From: a virus
Taxonomy: Duplodnaviria > Heunggongvirae > Uroviricota > Caudoviricetes
Virus record (IMG/VR): IMGVR_UViG_2529293042_000032
Coordinates: 1 to 7,728 of that record
Length of the DNA: 7,728 bases
Strand: one strand, 5' to 3'
The notes beneath the pieces were generated by a model. That model searched no databases. It saw nothing but the letters and a program-made list of their open reading frames with translations, and had not been told where the DNA came from. Made by a program: the position numbers and the translations under genes. Positions 765-7,249 of the stretch are shown here, piece after piece. Every line of letters begins with the position of its first letter. The stretch's first letter is position 1.

Positions 765-840
765 TGGTGCGTTGTAGTGGGTCGAACCAGTGACCGATTG
801 CTTAGAAGGCAATTGCTCTGTCCGGCTGAGCTAACAACGC
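765..840 (-). tRNA. tRNA-Arg (anticodon UCU), T-arm non-canonical as read
   Basis: 76 nt manual cloverleaf: acceptor GCGTTGT/ACAACGC, D-stem GCTC/GAGC, anticodon stem ATTGC/GCAAT with loop CUUCUAA, CCA encoded. T-loop reads TTCGAC (6 nt, one short) in a CCC run. Confidence 0.65.
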
Positions 841-936: not shown

Positions 937-1012
937 TGGTGGCCCTTGCTGGATTTGAACCAGCGGCCTGGCGATTATGAGTCGCTCGCTCTCACCACTG
1001 AGCTAAAGGGCC
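937..1012 (-). tRNA. tRNA with anticodon CAU (Ile2 lysidine-type likely; Met not excluded)
   Basis: 76 nt canonical cloverleaf: acceptor GGCCCTT/AAGGGCC, D-arm GCTC-AGTGGTGA-GAGC, anticodon loop CUCAUAA, T-arm GCTGG-TTCAAAT-CCAGC, CCA encoded. Resembles enterobacterial ileX-type tRNA from memory. Confidence 0.75.
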
Positions 1013-2085: not shown

Positions 2086-3190
2086 TTACCCGAGCACGCC
2101 GGTTGCAAAGGCGTGATCAAGAAAACGAAAAATTAAATCAACCTGGGAACCATGCTTTTCTTCGAACGCCAGCGGATCCGCATGAAGCTCGTTGTGATGC
2201 TCCCGACACAGCGGTAGCGTGAAAATATCGTGGGATTTTGTTCCCATTCCGCCCTGACCATGACCAATCAGATGATGAGGATCGTCCGCTGGCCTTACCA
2301 CAACACGCACACGGCTGTGTCTTTACCCAGCGTGTGTATTTCTCATTTACCCAGCGGCGACGTTTAGGTCGTTTCATGAAGGATTCCGGAGACTCCGGAT
2401 CAACGGCAATGCTGACCACCGTCTTTTCCTGTGGTGGGTTCTGTTGCTGGTGGGTGTGAGGCGGTAGCGCAATATTTTTTGTGCGCTGCTTCAGTATGCT
2501 GGTGGCGGTCTGTTCTCCCGGTATGATGTCGCTTTCACGGTATACGGAGCGGATTTTTTCCGCCGGTAATCCCAGAGAGCGACGCGATACTGCCTCAGGT
2601 AATGCGTCCACCACCTGATTGCAGACTGCCCACCAGGATAATTCAGCCAGCGATAATTCCCGCTCCTGCGTGCCATTCATTACATGGCGTATGACGTCAA
2701 TCATCCAGGCTGTCAGATTTTGTTGAGTAAGTTGCTCAAGTGATTCGGAGGTCTGGTCGCGCAGCTGGTTGTCGCAGTGCCAGCACAACACCATTGCGCC
2801 AGCACCGTAACTGTGAATAACGGTTTCGCTGTGATGATAATCGCCGTGTGGCCACTGGCAGGATTTCACGTGACGTAATAACCAGTCAGACAGTGCACCA
2901 GCGCCGCCAGCTGCACGAATCACCCGCTCATCGCTGAAAAATGGCAGCAGTGATTTATCTTCCGCCAGCGGCTGGCGAACAGCAGGAACCGCTCCAGATG
3001 GCAGCGCCCGCATGTTTTTCGGTTCCGGCTCCACCAGCACCCTGCCGCGATGAAAAACTGGCAATGATTCACGACCGGGCTTAAGGACCACCAGCCCGAG
3101 TTCCGGAACCAGAACAGGTCGAAGTAATACCCGCACATTACCTCCAGACGCGCTGACGGTAGCAGGCATGTGTCCGTGGCAGATGTGCAC
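2086..3190 (-). pseudogene. YdfU/DUF968-like Cys/His-rich protein, apparently frameshifted in its C-terminal domain
   Basis: Long frame (GTG 3190 or ATG 3169) carries MKRPKRRRWVNEKYTRWVKTQPCACCGKA then low-complexity sequence to 2138. The conserved continuation DDPHHLIGHGQGGMGTKSHDIFTLPLCREHHNELHADPLAFEEKHG is in the +1 frame, ending TAA 2088-2086. Switch near 2290-2296 (GGCC run). Layout resembles E. coli Qin YdfU (about 350 aa) from memory. Confidence 0.45.
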
Positions 3191-3459: not shown

Positions 3460-3488
3460 ATTGTAAGGCAATACGCCGGAATGTACAA
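3460..3488 (-). promoter_or_regulatory. Candidate sigma70 promoter (TTGTAC-N17-TACAAT) for the nin-like/Q operon
   Basis: Minus strand -35 TTGTAC (3488-3483) and -10 TACAAT (3465-3460) with 17-nt spacer, between the upstream terminator and the 3410 start. Confidence 0.3.
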
Positions 3489-3514
3489 ACAGAAAACCCG
3501 TCAGTAAGACGGGC
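3486..3514 (-). terminator. Intrinsic terminator after the YgiW-like gene
   Basis: Minus-strand RNA CCCGUC-UUACU-GACGGG followed by UUUUCUGUUUG, 18 nt past the stop at 3534-3532. Confidence 0.55.
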
Positions 3515-3531
3515 TTAACAAGCAGGGGCGG

Positions 3532-3876
3532 TTACTTTAATAATTTCAGTGCCTTTACATCAACTTCAACACTGCTCAGGTCTTTATCAATTTCACCCTC
3601 AATTCTTACTTTGTCTTTCGGAGAAACATTCTGACCGGCCCATATGCTGTCATCGATATCCGTGACAATTGTCCCGCTATTGTCACGAAACTCATAACGT
3701 TCATCACCCACTTTTTTAACGATGCTCCCTTCAAGGATAACCCATGCATCATCCTTCAGTTCTTTTGCCTGCGCTACTGTTGAACGCTCTGCTTCAGGCC
3801 CTTGGAAACCGCCCTGCTGTGCAAAAGCGCCAAAAGACACACCAGAAATAAGTGCTGCAATCAATACCTTTTTCAT
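3532..3876 (-). CDS. YgiW/YdeI (BOF) family OB-fold periplasmic protein with signal peptide, 114 aa
   Basis: ATG 3876-3874 with AGAGGA SD. N-terminal signal MKKVLIAALISGVSFGAFA. Family pattern QGGF.GP...STV.QAK.L.DD..V.L.G.IV.K..D..Y.F.D..G.I..DIDD..W present. Confidence 0.8.
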   Translation of the reverse strand: MKKVLIAALISGVSFGAFAQQGGFQGPEAERSTVAQAKELKDDAWVILEGSIVKKVGDERYEFRDNSGTIVTDIDDSIWAGQNVSPKDKVRIEGEIDKDLSSVEVDVKALKLLK

Positions 3877-3995
3877 TCATAGTCCTCTTTCAGAGATGAA
3901 CATTCAAACAGCATTTTCAGTATGGTAAAGCGCGGGTGCGTTGAGGATGCCTGACACATCAGAGGTGGCGGGAGATTACTCCCCCGCTTGGTCTC

Positions 3996-4151
3996 TTACT
4001 TCTCAGATTCGTAGTCTACGAAGACAGCGACCTCCGTCTGACCGGTTCGGATTCGCACCTCGCAGAGGTCTTTCCTCGTTACCAGTGCCGTCACTATGAC
4101 GGTTAAACAGATGACGATCAGGGCGATTAACATCGCCTTTTGCTGCTTCAT
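3996..4151 (-). CDS. hok: Hok/Gef family membrane toxin, 51 aa
   Basis: MKQQKAMLIALIVICLTVIVTALVTRKDLCEVRIRTGQTEVAVFVDYESEK with AAGGAG SD. Single TM segment followed by LTRKxLCE[IV]R...EVA.F..YES signature. An in-frame upstream ATG at 4208 would give 70 aa. Confidence 0.8.
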   Translation of the reverse strand: MKQQKAMLIALIVICLTVIVTALVTRKDLCEVRIRTGQTEVAVFVDYESEK

Positions 4152-4441
4152 AGCCTGCTTCTCCTTGCCTTTCGGCACGTAAGAGGCTAACCTACATGTG
4201 TTCAGCATGGATTGAGCCTCAGATTAATGTTAAGCGTCTTGCCGGACGCGTAATGTTAACTGGGGCTTTTCTCTATCTGCCGTTGGTGTTCATGCCCGAG
4301 GCAGATAGCCTCAAGCACCCGCAGCAATTCTACTTAACTCTCCTTTTCCCGCAAACCGTTTTTATCTCCAGCGACAAATCGAATACACAACCAGCACCAC
4401 CGCCATTACTGTTCCTACATTTGCGAATGCTTCAGGCCAGG

Positions 4442-4837
4442 TCATTGATTCACCTTCTGCTCAATATTTTTAAGGTCATTTTCCGCATACAGTATTGCAG
4501 TTCTTGCTGCCCGCAACCGTGCTTTGGTGTTCTTTTCTTCACGCTCGAGGCTGGCAACAGATTCTCGGAGCTGATCGTGTCTGTTATGAAGCTGTCTAAT
4601 CTCTCTCACCACAGCCTCACCATCGTTCGCACACCGCAGAACATACTGAAAAGGGTCCACAACACATCCGCACTGCAAGCACAGGATAACGTGATCCTGT
4701 TCATGAACCTCAATGGCCCGATGCTTACAGCTCTGTTGTGTGTAGTTTTTTCTGCCAGTTACTGTAATGTTCAGCAGCTTCTCTTCATCGCGCTTTGGCT
4801 GCACCAGTGTGATGATATTATCGCCTTCATTTTCCAT
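4442..4837 (-). CDS. Cys-rich zinc-ribbon-like protein with C-terminal coiled coil, 131 aa, function unknown
   Basis: ATG 4837-4835 with AGGAGG SD 7 nt upstream; start shares one base with the upstream TGA (TGATG). Cys cluster SCKH..ILCLQCGC..RCAN then heptad-like C-terminus. The 156-aa version in the track lacks an SD and overlaps the upstream gene. Confidence 0.55.
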   Translation of the reverse strand: MENEGDNIITLVQPKRDEEKLLNITVTGRKNYTQQSCKHRAIEVHEQDHVILCLQCGCVVDPFQYVLRCANDGEAVVREIRQLHNRHDQLRESVASLEREEKNTKARLRAARTAILYAENDLKNIEQKVNQ

Positions 4838-5736
4838 CAGTTCACCTCCTGCGGCGGTTCTGGTAGCGGCATCCAGTGTGACGGTTTCCACGACGCACCA
4901 GGAATTATCCACCCATCATTAGCGTCAGGATGCCCCGGGATGTAAGTCGCCCACTTCATTCGCCAGTCACCTTTCCTGTCAAACTCCACGGCAACAAGAA
5001 CGGCTGTTTTGGTATCCGGCATTCGCTCACTACAACTTATCCAACCATCCGGAGTTACCGGAGAGTTGCCAGACAGCGCATTCTGCAACCGTTCCAGCTT
5101 AACGTATTCCTGAACCCTGTTTCCGTCGCACGCCTGAAGCCATTGCTCAGCCTTTTGCGCATCAGTGTGAAAGGCACAAGTGCGACCGTCATCAAATTGC
5201 ATTTCGTAGAGGTTAGCAATCTGTTCAAACTGCGTGTGTGGCAACTTGTAAGTTTGGCTTACGAGTTCGGCTTCCAGTTCTGCTATGCGCTTCTCTGATG
5301 CTTCAAGTAACGCCTGCTTATCGCGTAGCGCTTCTTCCAGTTCAGCAACATGGCATTCACTATCAATAAGGTTGTTCTCTGCTGCTCCCAGCTCAACTCT
5401 CAGCTTCCCAACCGTAAGCGCAATCTCCTCGTTCTCCTGGTCGCGGCGTTTGATGTATTGCTGGTTTCTTTCCTGTTCATCCAGCAGTGCCAGCACGGTA
5501 GCCGGGTTAGCCTCTGCTATGAATTCAGCGTTTGCATAAGCCTGATCATCTGATTCAATCAGGCAGTTAACATGACATTCCGCAATCACGCCACCGGGTT
5601 CTCCTTTCCATTTTTGGCAAACAAAAACTCCTGTTAAATTGCCGTGCTGGTTAACAGATGTATGCCCTACGATGTAGCTTCCTTTAGTTGCTTTCTCTGC
5701 CTTTTCACGCAGTGCCTGATAATTAATTTCGCTCAC
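4837..5736 (-). CDS. Ea22-like N-terminal domain / DUF551-like C-terminal domain protein, 299 aa
   Basis: GTG 5736-5734 (AGAGAGG SD) overlapping the TraR stop in a GTGA junction. N-terminus MSEINYQALREKAEKATKGSY...NPATVLALLDE, central coiled coil, C-terminus DGWISCSERMPD...VLVAV...WMPLPEPP. Assigned from memory. Confidence 0.65.
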   Translation of the reverse strand: MSEINYQALREKAEKATKGSYIVGHTSVNQHGNLTGVFVCQKWKGEPGGVIAECHVNCLIESDDQAYANAEFIAEANPATVLALLDEQERNQQYIKRRDQENEEIALTVGKLRVELGAAENNLIDSECHVAELEEALRDKQALLEASEKRIAELEAELVSQTYKLPHTQFEQIANLYEMQFDDGRTCAFHTDAQKAEQWLQACDGNRVQEYVKLERLQNALSGNSPVTPDGWISCSERMPDTKTAVLVAVEFDRKGDWRMKWATYIPGHPDANDGWIIPGASWKPSHWMPLPEPPQEVN

Positions 5737-6001: not shown

Positions 6002-6631
6002 TTAGAATTCGAATTGCCTTGCCCGCAGGCTTTTCAGCATTGGTCTGGCCCGCTGAACTACGAAACTCGACTGGTCAAGCCGTGCCGCCTCTCTCAGTAG
6101 CACATCTCTGTTCTTCGTCACCATGTAGATGGTCTCAAACGCAATGTCATACAGCTTGTTCGTGTATGAGGAGTTCAGCTCTTTCATGATCGGATACAGG
6201 TGTTTGCTGAGGTCCTGGGCTTTTTCCATCCAGAGTTGCATGTAGCAGAGGAGGATGATTTCCTCGTCTGTGAATTGTTGCTGTGGTTCTGCTTGTGCCG
6301 ACTGCATGTTGCGAAGTTTCTTTTCGCACTCGATGAAGTATCTGCGTATCTGTCGGCCTTTTTCGTTACGCTCTACCATCGCCGTTTCTTTGGCTGTATC
6401 GAGGGTAAGGTGGTAGTCTTTTTTCCCTCGCCCATAACCTATTTCCCGTTTCTGGGAAATAGCTATATAGTCCTGATTTTCAACGAATCCGTACTCTTCA
6501 ATACGTTCTGTAATCCACGATGCAAAGCGTTTACCTACTCCAAGAAAAGTATGTAAATCACGGGCATTAACGAGAAGAGTGGTTTCGTTGGCGATAGTGC
6601 CGTTGAATACGGGGATGCGTTGACTGGTCAT
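6002..6631 (-). CDS. AntA/AntB-type phage antirepressor-like protein, 209 aa
   Basis: ATG 6631-6629 with AGGAGG SD 6 nt upstream. N-terminal LLVNARDLHTFLGVGKRFASWITERIEEYGFVENQDYI and HLTLDTAKETAMVERNEKGRQIRRYFIECEKKL match the AntA-type antirepressor N-domain as I recall it. Confidence 0.65.
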   Translation of the reverse strand: MTSQRIPVFNGTIANETTLLVNARDLHTFLGVGKRFASWITERIEEYGFVENQDYIAISQKREIGYGRGKKDYHLTLDTAKETAMVERNEKGRQIRRYFIECEKKLRNMQSAQAEPQQQFTDEEIILLCYMQLWMEKAQDLSKHLYPIMKELNSSYTNKLYDIAFETIYMVTKNRDVLLREAARLDQSSFVVQRARPMLKSLRARQFEF

Positions 6632-6659: not shown

Positions 6660-6682
6660 ACCGCCAGTTAGTAGCTGGCGGT
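6660..6682. repeat. Perfect 8-bp inverted repeat (ACCGCCAG-N7-CTGGCGGT) 10 nt upstream of the antA SD
   Basis: Read directly: arms 6660-6667 and 6675-6682, loop TTAGTAG. Confidence 0.6.
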
Positions 6683-6849
6683 CGGGTGTCAACTGAGCCA
6701 AATAAGAAGCTCTGGGCATATTCCCCTTGCGGGTGTTGTATTACGCCTCTCCACCCGACCTTTGTACGGATGTAACTATGCCAAATTGCAGGCATAAAAA
6801 AGCCGCAAAGCTATCGGGTGCGGAGACCGCTTATTTGTTCAGTGCGGTC

Positions 6850-6963: not shown

Positions 6964-6994
6964 ATCTGAAATATCAAGTTAAATCCCCTTAAAT

Positions 6995-7080
6995 GTTTGG
7001 GGCACTATTGGGGCAAAATGTGGTTGTTTGGGGCACTATTGGGGCAAAATGTGGTTGTTTGGGGCATATTTGGGGCAAAA
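6995..7080. repeat. Tandem direct repeat, 31-bp unit x about 2.8, giving six TTGGGGCA motifs
   Basis: Units 6995-7025 and 7026-7056 are identical (GTTTGGGGCACTATTGGGGCAAAATGTGGTT); a variant partial unit runs 7057-7080. Motif starts at 6997, 7008, 7028, 7039, 7059, 7070 (spacing alternates 11 and 20 bp). AAAGAACG x2 follows at 7080-7098. Confidence 0.75.
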
Positions 7081-7186: not shown

Positions 7187-7249
7187 TTAATGCTTCATGG
7201 TTTCAATATGTCCGTACATGGAATAATAAAGCACCAGAACTTTAGCCAT
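7187..7249 (-). pseudogene. wrbA: 5' fragment of host wrbA (codons 1-18) truncated by prophage insertion
   Basis: Minus ATG 7249-7247 encodes MAKVLVLYYSMYGHIETM, matching the WrbA N-terminus from memory, then diverges into KH-stop (TAA 7189-7187). Confidence 0.7.

What the first reader, a model, noticed from the sequence alone, without database searches (positions are those of the whole stretch)
3877..4441. Hok-family toxin locus sits where xis/int would be, with no relBE partner and unverified Sok/Mok elements
The 51-aa ORF is an unmistakable Hok/Gef toxin with its own SD. It is preceded by a 230-bp untranslated leader containing a 9-bp inverted repeat (4273-4281 / 4300-4308) and an in-frame upstream ATG giving exactly 70 codons, and followed by a stable 3' hairpin (3968-3987). 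I could not confidently locate a Sok antisense promoter or terminator on the plus strand. If Sok is missing the toxin must be silenced some other way or be inactive.
Basis: partly seen in the sequence, partly recalled or inferred. Interest (0 to 1): 0.5.

Follow-up and report, generated by a model that had tools for sequence, protein, structure and literature searches.

The report
Known hokW/sokW phage toxin-antitoxin locus

Summary
Window 3877-4441 is 100% identical to the hokW/mokW/sokW locus of Stx2 phage 933W and of Sp5 (VT2-Sakai). Those records have annotated a SokW antisense RNA since 1999. It maps to window 4200-4270 on the plus strand. A 2021 paper (PMC8621323) showed that HokW is toxic, that sokW expressed from its own promoter neutralises it, that a sokW -10 mutant loses protection, and that both RNAs appear on northern blots. 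All of that paper's primers and probes map exactly onto the window.

I located each element directly:
- Sok promoter: TTGCCT (4165-4170), 17-nt spacer, TAACCT (4188-4193), start at G4200.
- SokW RNA: 14-nt 5' tail, hairpin 4214-4267, then a U-tract.
- hok mRNA: begins near 4320; its 5' end pairs with 3934-3946 (fbi).
- mok: start codon 4208-4206; its start region is masked by 3947-3966.
- Sok target: a loop (CUGAACA, 4205-4199) complementary to the SokW 5' end.

The Rfam model RF01794 scores 113.5 bits, the same as the curated K-12 hokC and hokB loci. Relatives at 86-94% identity conserve every element.

The suspicion that Sok is missing is refuted, and so is the "where xis/int would be" placement. 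Verdict: already known, low interest.

The parts
3996..4151 (-). hokW: 51-aa membrane toxin CDS
   Evidence: ORF list. Pfam HOK_GEF at 79.8 bits. 100% DNA identity to the annotated hokW of 933W and Sp5. 47 of 51 residues identical to K-12 HokD. Toxicity and inner-membrane localisation shown for the identical gene.
3996..4208 (-). mokW: 70-codon overlapping reading frame whose translation is needed for hok translation. Start codon 4208-4206; SD GAGG at 4219-4216.
   Evidence: ORF list. Annotated as mokW in 933W and Sp5. The ATG is invariant in 11 aligned loci. Translational coupling is inferred from R1 hok/sok as summarised.
4200..4270 (+). sokW antisense RNA (antitoxin). The 3' end lies somewhere in the U-tract 4267-4276.
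   Evidence: misc_RNA annotation in 933W and Sp5, mapped by offset. The northern probe YO-592 corresponds to plus-strand RNA 4200-4229. The curated K-12 sokC starts at the homologous G and ends in the homologous GGGGCTTTTCTCTAT. Fold: 14-nt 5' tail plus hairpin, -31.5 kcal/mol, z = -5.2.
4165..4193 (+). sokW promoter: -35 TTGCCT (4165-4170), 17-nt spacer, -10 TAACCT (4188-4193), start at G4200. It overlaps the hok SD on the other strand.
   Evidence: Sequence. The promoter-less mutant in the paper replaces 4188-4194, derived from primers YO-421 and YO-422. sokC and sokB share the same architecture. The -35 is invariant and the key -10 positions are conserved in relatives.
4214..4276 (+). SokW terminator hairpin (4214-4267) followed by UUUUCUCU
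   Evidence: Folds: -28.5 kcal/mol on the Sok strand against -18.5 for the mirror hairpin on the hok strand. The hairpin plus GGGGCTTT tail is conserved, including in the shortened hokC-type and PPompW-type versions.
4327..4354 (-). Putative hok/mok mRNA promoter: TTGCGG (4354-4349), 16-nt spacer, TAGAAT (4332-4327), start near G4320
   Evidence: Read from the sequence. The -10 TAnnAT and the following GCGGGTGCTTGAGGCT are conserved across relatives. Position 1 of the Rfam model aligns to 4320. The start site is inferred, not mapped.
4262..4320 (-). hok mRNA 5' end with the tac stem.
   Evidence: Inverted repeat with 20-nt arms. First helix of the Rfam consensus. The fold constrained to the tac stem (-58.0) is nearly isoenergetic with the MFE fold, which has a local 5' hairpin (-60.7).
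4183..4220 (-). Sok-target hairpin with the 7-nt loop CUGAACA (4205-4199, YUNR motif CUGA). The loop is complementary to the first six nt of SokW.
   Evidence: Local fold at -12.2 kcal/mol. The same helix is in the Rfam consensus. The loop and tail sequence is the most variable part of the locus among relatives.
3968..3987 (-). Stable 3' hairpin just after the hok stop codon (8-bp stem, GUAA loop). It probably acts as a block to 3' exonucleases.
   Evidence: Present in the MFE of both the full-length and the truncated RNA. The homologous position is kept in relatives. Its role is inferred from R1.
3947..3966 (-). Downstream complementary box that pairs with the mok start and Sok-target region (4208-4190) in the full-length mRNA
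   Evidence: Pair table of the MFE fold. 67% invariant columns in relatives.
3934..3946 (-). fbi (fold-back inhibition) element that pairs with the mRNA 5' end, 4320-4309
   Evidence: MFE of the 401-nt RNA: -158.8 kcal/mol, z = -6.1, with 5'-3' closure. 12 of 13 columns invariant in relatives, and retained in K-12 hokD.

Best explanation
This is an intact hok/mok/sok-type (type I) toxin-antitoxin cassette, identical to hokW/mokW/sokW of Stx phages 933W and Sp5.

Proposed mechanism, step by step:
1. A weak promoter near 4354-4327 makes a stable mRNA of about 390 nt on the minus strand, starting near 4320 (inferred).
2. In the full-length RNA the 5' end pairs with the fbi element (4320-4309 with 3934-3946). 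The mok start region pairs with a downstream box (4208-4190 with 3947-3966). The RNA can then neither be translated nor bind Sok (predicted by folding; shown experimentally only for R1).
3. Slow 3' trimming back toward the hairpin at 3968-3987 releases the 5' end. The 5' end refolds into the tac stem, and the target hairpin 4220-4183 is exposed (inferred from R1).
4. The unstable SokW RNA of about 71 nt is made from TTGCCT-17-TAACCT and starts at G4200 on the plus strand. Its single-stranded 5' tail pairs with the CUGAACA loop, then forms a duplex across the mok SD and AUG. This blocks mok translation, and therefore the coupled hok translation. The duplex is partly cleared by RNase III, and Hfq helps. 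The antitoxin activity, the promoter and the partial RNase III and Hfq dependence were shown for the identical sequence.
5. When SokW disappears, HokW is made, inserts in the inner membrane and stops growth or kills the cell (shown). In Sp5 lysogens this happens on RecA-dependent prophage induction. It advances lysis and roughly doubles phage release (shown).
For: - Identity: 565 of 565 nt match 933W, VT2-Sakai and more than 40 other Stx phage records. The mokW, hokW and sokW annotations map to window 3996-4208, 3996-4151 and 4200-4270.
- Experiments on the identical sequence: toxicity, sokW antitoxin activity, a promoter-less mutant, partial RNase III and Hfq dependence, northern blots, membrane localisation and the phage-release phenotype. 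All primers and probes map exactly to the window.
- Covariance model: RF01794 scores 113.5 bits (gathering score 59) at 4146-4320 (-), against 118.3 and 109.7 bits at the curated K-12 hokC and hokB loci and nothing at the truncated hokD.
- Folds: SokW z = -5.2. Full-length mRNA z = -6.1 with 5'-3' closure and masking of the mok start region. The target loop is complementary to the SokW 5' end, and the Sok-strand hairpin is 10 kcal/mol more stable than its mirror image.
- Conservation: the promoter boxes, start site, hairpin, U-tract, mok ATG, hok SD and fbi are all conserved in relatives at 86-94% identity. The curated sokC and sokB share the same promoter architecture and start position.
Against: - The strict sigma-70 and terminator consensus scans find nothing in 3800-4600. 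The Sok promoter matches only 7 of 12 consensus positions, and the U-tract starts 4 nt after the stem.
- The MFE of the 3'-truncated RNA does not by itself reproduce the Rfam active fold. 3' processing and refolding have not been shown for hokW.
- No intrinsic terminator lies between fbi (3934) and the next gene start (3876). The nearest is at 3516-3494, after the ygiW-like gene, so the mRNA 3' end is undefined. Relatives such as hokD do have a terminator right after fbi.
- RNase III and Hfq are only partly required.
- In this window the cassette sits in a hybrid prophage context not seen elsewhere, so the phage-release role shown for Sp5 may not apply to this genome.
Confidence: 0.96

Rival explanations
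1. One reading: a Sok-less hok gene. The toxin would have to be silenced by some other means, for example mRNA fold-back alone, or be inactive.
For: Consensus scans find no promoter or terminator on the plus strand. RefSeq/PGAP annotates only the Hok CDS at such loci and never a sok RNA. A real Sok-less relative exists: K-12 hokD.
Against: The SokW promoter, start site, hairpin and U-tract are all present and conserved. The identical sequence produces a detectable sokW RNA whose promoter mutation unmasks toxicity. RF01794 scores as high here as at curated intact loci.
Confidence: 0.01
2. A decayed, non-functional relic, like most K-12 chromosomal hok loci, carried along in a degraded or rearranged prophage.
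For: The surrounding window shows decay relative to an intact O157 prophage: 1-nt indels in the RusA gene (1928) and the DUF968 gene (2293). The overall arrangement is a hybrid not found in 5,426 complete genomes.
Against: Positions 3563-5378 have no difference from functional 933W. The 565-bp region of the finding is identical to the functional Sp5 locus. Every regulatory element is intact.
Confidence: 0.02
3. Same parts, different role in this genome. Here the cassette would act mainly as an addiction or stabilisation module, or as an abortive-infection module, for a defective hybrid prophage, and not as a helper of phage release.
For: The cassette behaves as a self-contained unit of about 1 kb (27-aa ORF, hok/sok, ygiW-like gene, terminator) found in two different prophage positions. 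Hok loci of this family occur in 4,710 of 5,426 E. coli genomes, at up to 10 copies. R1 hok/sok is reported to stabilise plasmids and to reduce T4 plating.
Against: Deleting hokW-sokW from Sp5 had no effect on normal growth, and no stabilisation or defence phenotype has been reported for hokW. Nothing in the sequence distinguishes between these roles.
Confidence: 0.2

Closest known systems
hokW/mokW/sokW of Stx2 phage 933W (AF125520) and Sakai prophage 5 / VT2-Sakai (AP000363, AP000422); Takada et al. 2021, PMC8621323
   Same: Identical sequence over 3877-4441, and no difference from 933W anywhere in 3563-5378. The upstream neighbours are the same out to attR, the wrbA remnant and ymdF.
   Different: Downstream of the cassette the window switches, inside the ygiW-like gene (between 3562 and 3634), to the allele and neighbours of a nin-region copy from another O157 prophage. 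The cassette itself does not differ.
hok/mok/sok of plasmid R1 (the family prototype)
   Same: - Hok/Gef toxin with an overlapping mok frame.
- An antisense RNA of about 65-70 nt covering the mok start region, with its promoter overlapping the hok SD.
- 5'-3' fold-back closure, a tac stem, a target hairpin with a YUNR loop, and RNase III involvement.
   Different: - Only 44% amino-acid identity.
- Carried on a prophage, not a plasmid.
- The reported phenotype is help with phage release on induction, not post-segregational killing.
- 3' processing has not been shown, and there is no terminator directly after fbi.
K-12 hokD (relF) downstream of relBE in the cryptic prophage Qin
   Same: The toxin is 92% identical. 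The 3' hairpin, downstream box and fbi are the same. The nin-region neighbourhood (rem-like ORF, DUF968/ydfU, Q) matches the left half of the window.
   Different: In hokD, homology stops at the hok SD. relE occupies the place of the leader, mok and sok, and RF01794 finds nothing there. The window copy has the full leader, mok and sok, and no relBE.
K-12 hokC (gef)/mokC/sokC and hokB/mokB/sokB
   Same: Same architecture, with comparable Rfam scores. The curated sokC start is exactly homologous, and the first 9 nt of SokC and SokW are identical (GUUCAGCAU).
   Different: The Sok hairpin is 18 nt shorter in sokC. The sokC -10 (CACTCT) is poorer than that of sokW (TAACCT). These are chromosomal loci and not phage-borne.

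Membership tests
hok/mok/sok type I toxin-antitoxin family | Small (about 50 aa) Hok/Gef-family hydrophobic toxin | tested here: met
   Pfam PF01848 at 79.8 bits against a cut-off of 22. 92% identical to HokD. The NCBIfam Hok subfamily hit (53.6 bits) falls below its curated cut-off of 73, which I take to reflect that model's narrow scope.
hok/mok/sok type I toxin-antitoxin family | Overlapping mok reading frame that starts upstream of hok and ends at the same stop codon | tested here: met
   70-codon ORF 3996-4208, in frame with hok. The ATG is invariant in relatives. Annotated as mokW.
hok/mok/sok type I toxin-antitoxin family | Cis-encoded antisense Sok RNA of about 55-75 nt, complementary to the mok translation-initiation region and made from its own promoter | tested here: met
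   The promoter, start site, hairpin and U-tract are located and conserved. The RNA and its promoter were demonstrated experimentally for the identical sequence.
hok/mok/sok type I toxin-antitoxin family | Conserved hok mRNA leader structure (tac stem, Sok-target hairpin) | tested here: met
   RF01794 full-length match (model positions 1-157 of 157) at 113.5 bits, equal to the curated K-12 loci. Target hairpin with a YUNR loop.
hok/mok/sok type I toxin-antitoxin family | Fold-back inhibition: the 3' end (fbi) pairs with the 5' end of the full-length mRNA | tested here: met
   The MFE fold pairs 4320-4309 with 3934-3946, z = -6.1. fbi is 92% invariant in relatives. This is a prediction only; there is no structure probing.
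hok/mok/sok type I toxin-antitoxin family | Activation by slow 3' exonucleolytic processing and refolding of the mRNA | not testable with these tools
   The paper saw two shorter hokW RNAs of unknown identity. The MFE of a truncated RNA does not on its own give the active fold. The tac-stem fold lies within 2.7 kcal/mol of the MFE.
hok/mok/sok type I toxin-antitoxin family | Stable toxin mRNA with an unstable antitoxin RNA; RNase III cleaves the duplex | not testable with these tools
   From the literature on the identical locus: sokW RNA vanishes after mitomycin C while hokW mRNA persists, and the antitoxin activity depends partly on RNase III and Hfq.
relBE-hokD (relF) operon of the Qin prophage | hok gene lies directly downstream of relE, with no leader, mok or sok of its own | tested here: not met
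   No relBE in the window. The full leader, mok and sok are present. So it is not a member of that arrangement.

The most novel reading that the evidence does not exclude
The position of the cassette may itself be the trigger that the 2021 paper left unexplained. In 933W, N, xis and int all read on one strand toward attL. The genes antA through L0139 and hokW read on that same strand away from attR. Only after excision and circularisation would the N-antiterminated leftward early transcript continue from int across attP into antA and on to hokW. No convincing terminator stands in the way. That transcript is hok-sense, so it would collide with or occlude the sokW promoter, and it would also titrate SokW. 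This would explain why sokW RNA disappears and HokW appears only on RecA-dependent induction. The geometry resembles lambda sib/int retroregulation. This is inference only.
Probability: 0.25. Interest if true: 0.45.

Novelty: already known. Interest (0 to 1): 0.08.

Why it matters
For the scan, the value is a clean negative: this is a textbook, experimentally validated hok/mok/sok cassette and not a Sok-less toxin.

Three practical lessons follow:
- The Rfam family called "sok" (RF01794) actually models the hok-sense leader. Its hits fall on the hok strand, and the real Sok gene is nested on the opposite strand.
- RefSeq/PGAP annotates only the Hok CDS at thousands of such loci, so Sok looks absent from standard annotation.
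- Sok promoters and terminators fail simple consensus scans.

The only open biology is how prophage induction removes SokW. The geometry of the locus suggests an excision-dependent read-through model that can be tested.

Tried and rejected
- The simple sigma-70 and terminator consensus scan over 3800-4600 found nothing. I rejected it as evidence of absence, because curated sokC and sokB promoters are equally weak.
- MFE folding of the 3'-truncated mRNA and of the isolated leader did not reproduce the Rfam active structure. It gave a local 5' hairpin instead. Scoring the tac-stem fold showed that the two are nearly isoenergetic. This is left as inconclusive for the refolding step.
- I looked for the source of the hybrid arrangement. 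No complete E. coli genome or phage record covers 80% or more of the window. Exact-protein look-ups returned only the two parental contexts. The exact 147-nt crossover haplotype has no hit in IMG/VR or in the fetched loci. One call failed on pattern syntax. A real recombinant and an assembly join cannot be told apart.
- I looked for a hokW mRNA terminator between fbi and the next gene. There is none, and that stretch does not fold better than shuffled sequence (z = 0.15).
- Covariation in the Sok hairpin gave only 2 compensatory pairs among 8 distinct sequences. The relatives are too similar for a strong test, and covariation would not separate the two strands anyway. The asymmetry in hairpin stability between the strands is more informative.
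- NCBIfam Hok models score below their curated cut-offs. I did not pursue this, since Pfam and 92% identity to HokD are decisive.

Full report
**What is in the sequence**

On the minus strand, a 51-aa ORF (3996-4151) is preceded by AAGGAG and embedded in a 70-codon in-frame ORF (3996-4208). The protein is a Hok/Gef toxin (Pfam PF01848, 79.8 bits) and is 47/51 identical to K-12 HokD. It is the core of a repeat with 20-nt arms, 4262-4281 / 4300-4319. The 3' hairpin at 3968-3987 forms in every fold of the mRNA. The sequence-level observation therefore holds, with one correction: the leader is not 230 bp of untranslated RNA. The transcript most likely starts near 4320, which gives a leader of about 169 nt. 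Positions 4321-4441 hold the hok promoter, a small conserved ORF and the end of the upstream gene.

**Identity**

Window 3877-4441 is 100% identical to more than 40 Stx-phage records, including 933W and VT2-Sakai/Sp5. The 933W record annotates mokW, hokW and a "SokW antisense RNA". With the offset of 124 nt these map to window 3996-4208 (-), 3996-4151 (-) and 4200-4270 (+). The Sp5 record carries the same three features. Across 3563-5378 the window has no difference at all from 933W.

**Experimental status**

Takada et al. 2021 (PMC8621323) worked on this exact sequence. They reported the following:
- HokW arrests growth when induced.
- A clone carrying sokW under its own promoter is not toxic.
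- Mutating the sokW -10 restores toxicity, and sokW supplied in trans partly rescues.
- Protection depends partly on RNase III and Hfq.
- Northern blots detect both RNAs.
- After mitomycin C, sokW RNA disappears while hokW mRNA persists. HokW then appears in the inner membrane in a RecA-dependent way.
- Deleting the locus delays lysis and halves phage release.

I mapped all of their primers onto the window and every one matches exactly. The sokW probe corresponds to plus-strand RNA 4200-4229. The promoter-less mutation replaces plus-strand TAACCTA at 4188-4194.

**Locating Sok independently**

The plus strand reads TTGCCT (4165-4170), a 17-nt spacer, TAACCT (4188-4193), six more nt, then G4200. 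From 4200 the RNA folds into a 14-nt single-stranded tail and one long hairpin (4214-4267), followed by UUUUCUCU. The fold is -31.5 kcal/mol with z = -5.2, and none of 200 shuffles folds as well.

The curated K-12 sokC starts at the exactly homologous G (GTTCAGCAT...) and ends in the homologous GGGGCTTTTCTCTAT. Its promoter is TTGACC-17-CACTCT. sokB has TTGCCG-17-TAAGAT. The strict consensus scan found nothing because these promoters match only about 7 of 12 positions and the U-tract begins 4 nt after the stem. That is a limit of the scan and not evidence that Sok is absent.

**The Rfam result and a caveat**

RF01794 ("sok") matches 4146-4320 at 113.5 bits (gathering score 59), but on the minus strand, and the alignment ends at the hok AUG. 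At the curated K-12 loci the same model also hits the hok strand (118.3 bits at hokC, 109.7 bits at hokB), with the real sokC and sokB genes nested on the opposite strand. It finds nothing at hokD. The model therefore describes the hok leader in the sense orientation. A full-length hit means an intact leader and Sok region, and the Sok gene is its reverse complement.

**mRNA architecture**

The 401-nt RNA from 4320 to 3920 folds at -158.8 kcal/mol, z = -6.1. Its features are:

| Feature | Coordinates or value |
|---|---|
| fbi closure | 5' end 4320-4309 pairs with 3934-3946 |
| Masking of mok AUG and Sok target | 4208-4190 pairs with 3947-3966 |
| Target hairpin, folded locally | 4220-4183, loop CUGAACA (4205-4199) beginning with the YUNR motif CUGA |
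| Match to SokW | the loop is complementary to the first six nt of SokW |
| Leader folds | tac-stem fold -58.0 kcal/mol; MFE with a local 5' hairpin -60.7 kcal/mol |
| Long hairpin by strand | -28.5 kcal/mol on the Sok strand; -18.5 on the hok strand |

The near-equal energies of the two leader folds fit a refolding switch. The stability difference in the long hairpin arises because G·U pairs on the Sok strand become C·A mismatches on the hok strand. The MFE of a 3'-trimmed RNA does not by itself give the active fold, so the processing and refolding step remains an inference from R1.

**Conservation**

I aligned eleven loci: the window, seven phage and plasmid relatives at 86-94% identity, the O157 nin-region copy, and K-12 hokC. 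Results for the ten close loci, leaving out hokC:

| Element | Invariant columns |
|---|---|
| Sok -35 | 100% |
| hok SD to AUG | 94% |
| fbi | 92% |
| hok CDS | 85% |
| 5' end / tac arm | 81% |
| Sok -10 | 67% (TAAYCT, key positions kept) |
| Sok 5' tail | 36% |

The most variable patch in the transcribed part of the locus is the Sok 5' tail and its target loop (mean pairwise difference 0.33). This is what a specificity determinant should look like in genomes that carry several hok/sok copies. Copies at 80% identity or better occur in 4,710 of 5,426 complete E. coli genomes, with a median of 2 and up to 10 per genome. RefSeq annotates only the Hok CDS there.

**relBE and position**

K-12 hokD aligns with the window only from the hok SD onward. 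Upstream of that point relE replaces the leader, mok and sok. The absence of relBE here is therefore the normal state. As for position, in 933W and Sp5 the cassette lies next to attR, with int and xis at attL at the other end of the prophage. In other O157 prophages the same cassette sits in the nin region, in the order P, DUF551, hok, ygiW-like gene, 90-aa ORF, DUF968, RusA, Q. It is not where xis and int would be.

**Context oddity (not part of the finding)**

The window is a hybrid. It carries the nin-type alleles up to about 3562 and the 933W alleles from about 3634, so the crossover lies inside the ygiW-like gene. No complete E. coli genome or phage record covers 80% or more of the window. 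Exact-protein look-ups return only the two parental contexts. The exact crossover haplotype is absent from IMG/VR and from all fetched loci. It may be a rare inter-prophage recombinant or an assembly join across the repeated cassette of about 1 kb.

**Open point and the most novel reading**

The 2021 paper could not say which induction step removes sokW. In 933W, N, xis and int read toward attL, and antA through hokW read away from attR on the same strand. After excision, the leftward early transcript would therefore run across attP into hokW, head-on against PsokW. No convincing terminator lies in between. This is inference only, and I give it about 25%.

**Verdict**

This is an already known, intact hokW/mokW/sokW locus. 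The suspicion of a missing Sok and the positional claim are wrong. Interest is low.

Noticed in passing
window 3485-4878; crossover between 3562 and 3634: The window is a hybrid of two prophage contexts. Nin-region alleles of an O157 lambdoid prophage lie to the left, and 933W/Sp5 attR-end alleles lie to the right, with the crossover inside the ygiW-like gene. No complete E. coli genome, phage record or IMG/VR contig has this arrangement or the exact crossover haplotype. It is either a rare inter-prophage recombinant or an assembly chimera.
   Followed up: partly
window 4362-4445 (-): An unannotated 27-aa hydrophobic ORF (MTWPEAFANVGTVMAVVLVVYSICRWR). Its ATG overlaps the stop codon of the upstream 156-aa gene (ATGA). 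It stays open in the diverged nin-type copy, with 21 of 27 residues identical and synonymous changes present. Homology between the two contexts begins at its SD, so it travels with the hok cassette. No family hit.
   Followed up: partly
window 6672-6760 (-): A full-length Rfam sRNA-Xcc1 (RF02221) match at 69.1 bits (gathering score 53), directly upstream of the AntA antirepressor gene (6002-6631) on the same strand. A promoter-like site lies at 6879-6850. RefSeq does not annotate it in the 382 genomes that carry this region. In APSE phages the same family sits upstream of an ORF6N-domain gene, which hints at a cis-acting leader of antirepressor-type genes.
   Followed up: partly
window 3876-3934 and 3494-3516 (-): There is no terminator between the hok fbi element and the ygiW-like gene. 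Relatives such as K-12 hokD have one right after fbi. The first good terminator, at 3516-3494, follows the ygiW-like gene, and homology with 933W starts just behind it at 3485. The 3' end of hokW mRNA is therefore undefined, and the mobile unit looks like a moron of about 1 kb.
   Followed up: partly
window 4200-4213 (+), compared with L002 553-566: The Sok 5' tail and its target loop form the most variable part of the locus among relatives. Even so, SokW and K-12 SokC share an identical first 9 nt (GUUCAGCAU). This raises the possibility of cross-recognition between SokC and hokW mRNA in K-12 hosts.
   Followed up: no
window 1928 and 2293: There are 1-nt indels relative to an intact O157 prophage. 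The RusA ORF is cut to 55 aa (1906-2073), and the DUF968 gene is split into ORFs 2138-3190 and 2086-2310. This reflects prophage decay or sequencing errors.
   Followed up: no
window 6994-7080 (+): A 31-bp tandem repeat (2.8 copies, 96% matching; unit TGTTTGGGGCACTATTGGGGCAAAATGTGGT) lies about 120 bp from the att core (about 7200-7206). These may be integrase arm-type binding sites.
   Followed up: no
window 765-840 and 937-1012 (-): Two phage-borne tRNA genes lie downstream of the Q-like antiterminator (1152-1718): tRNA-Arg (anticodon tct) and a CAT-anticodon tRNA that ARAGORN calls Met and RefSeq calls Ile in the O157 relative. The window lacks the HTH-domain gene that the relative has between the tRNAs and Q.
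   Followed up: no
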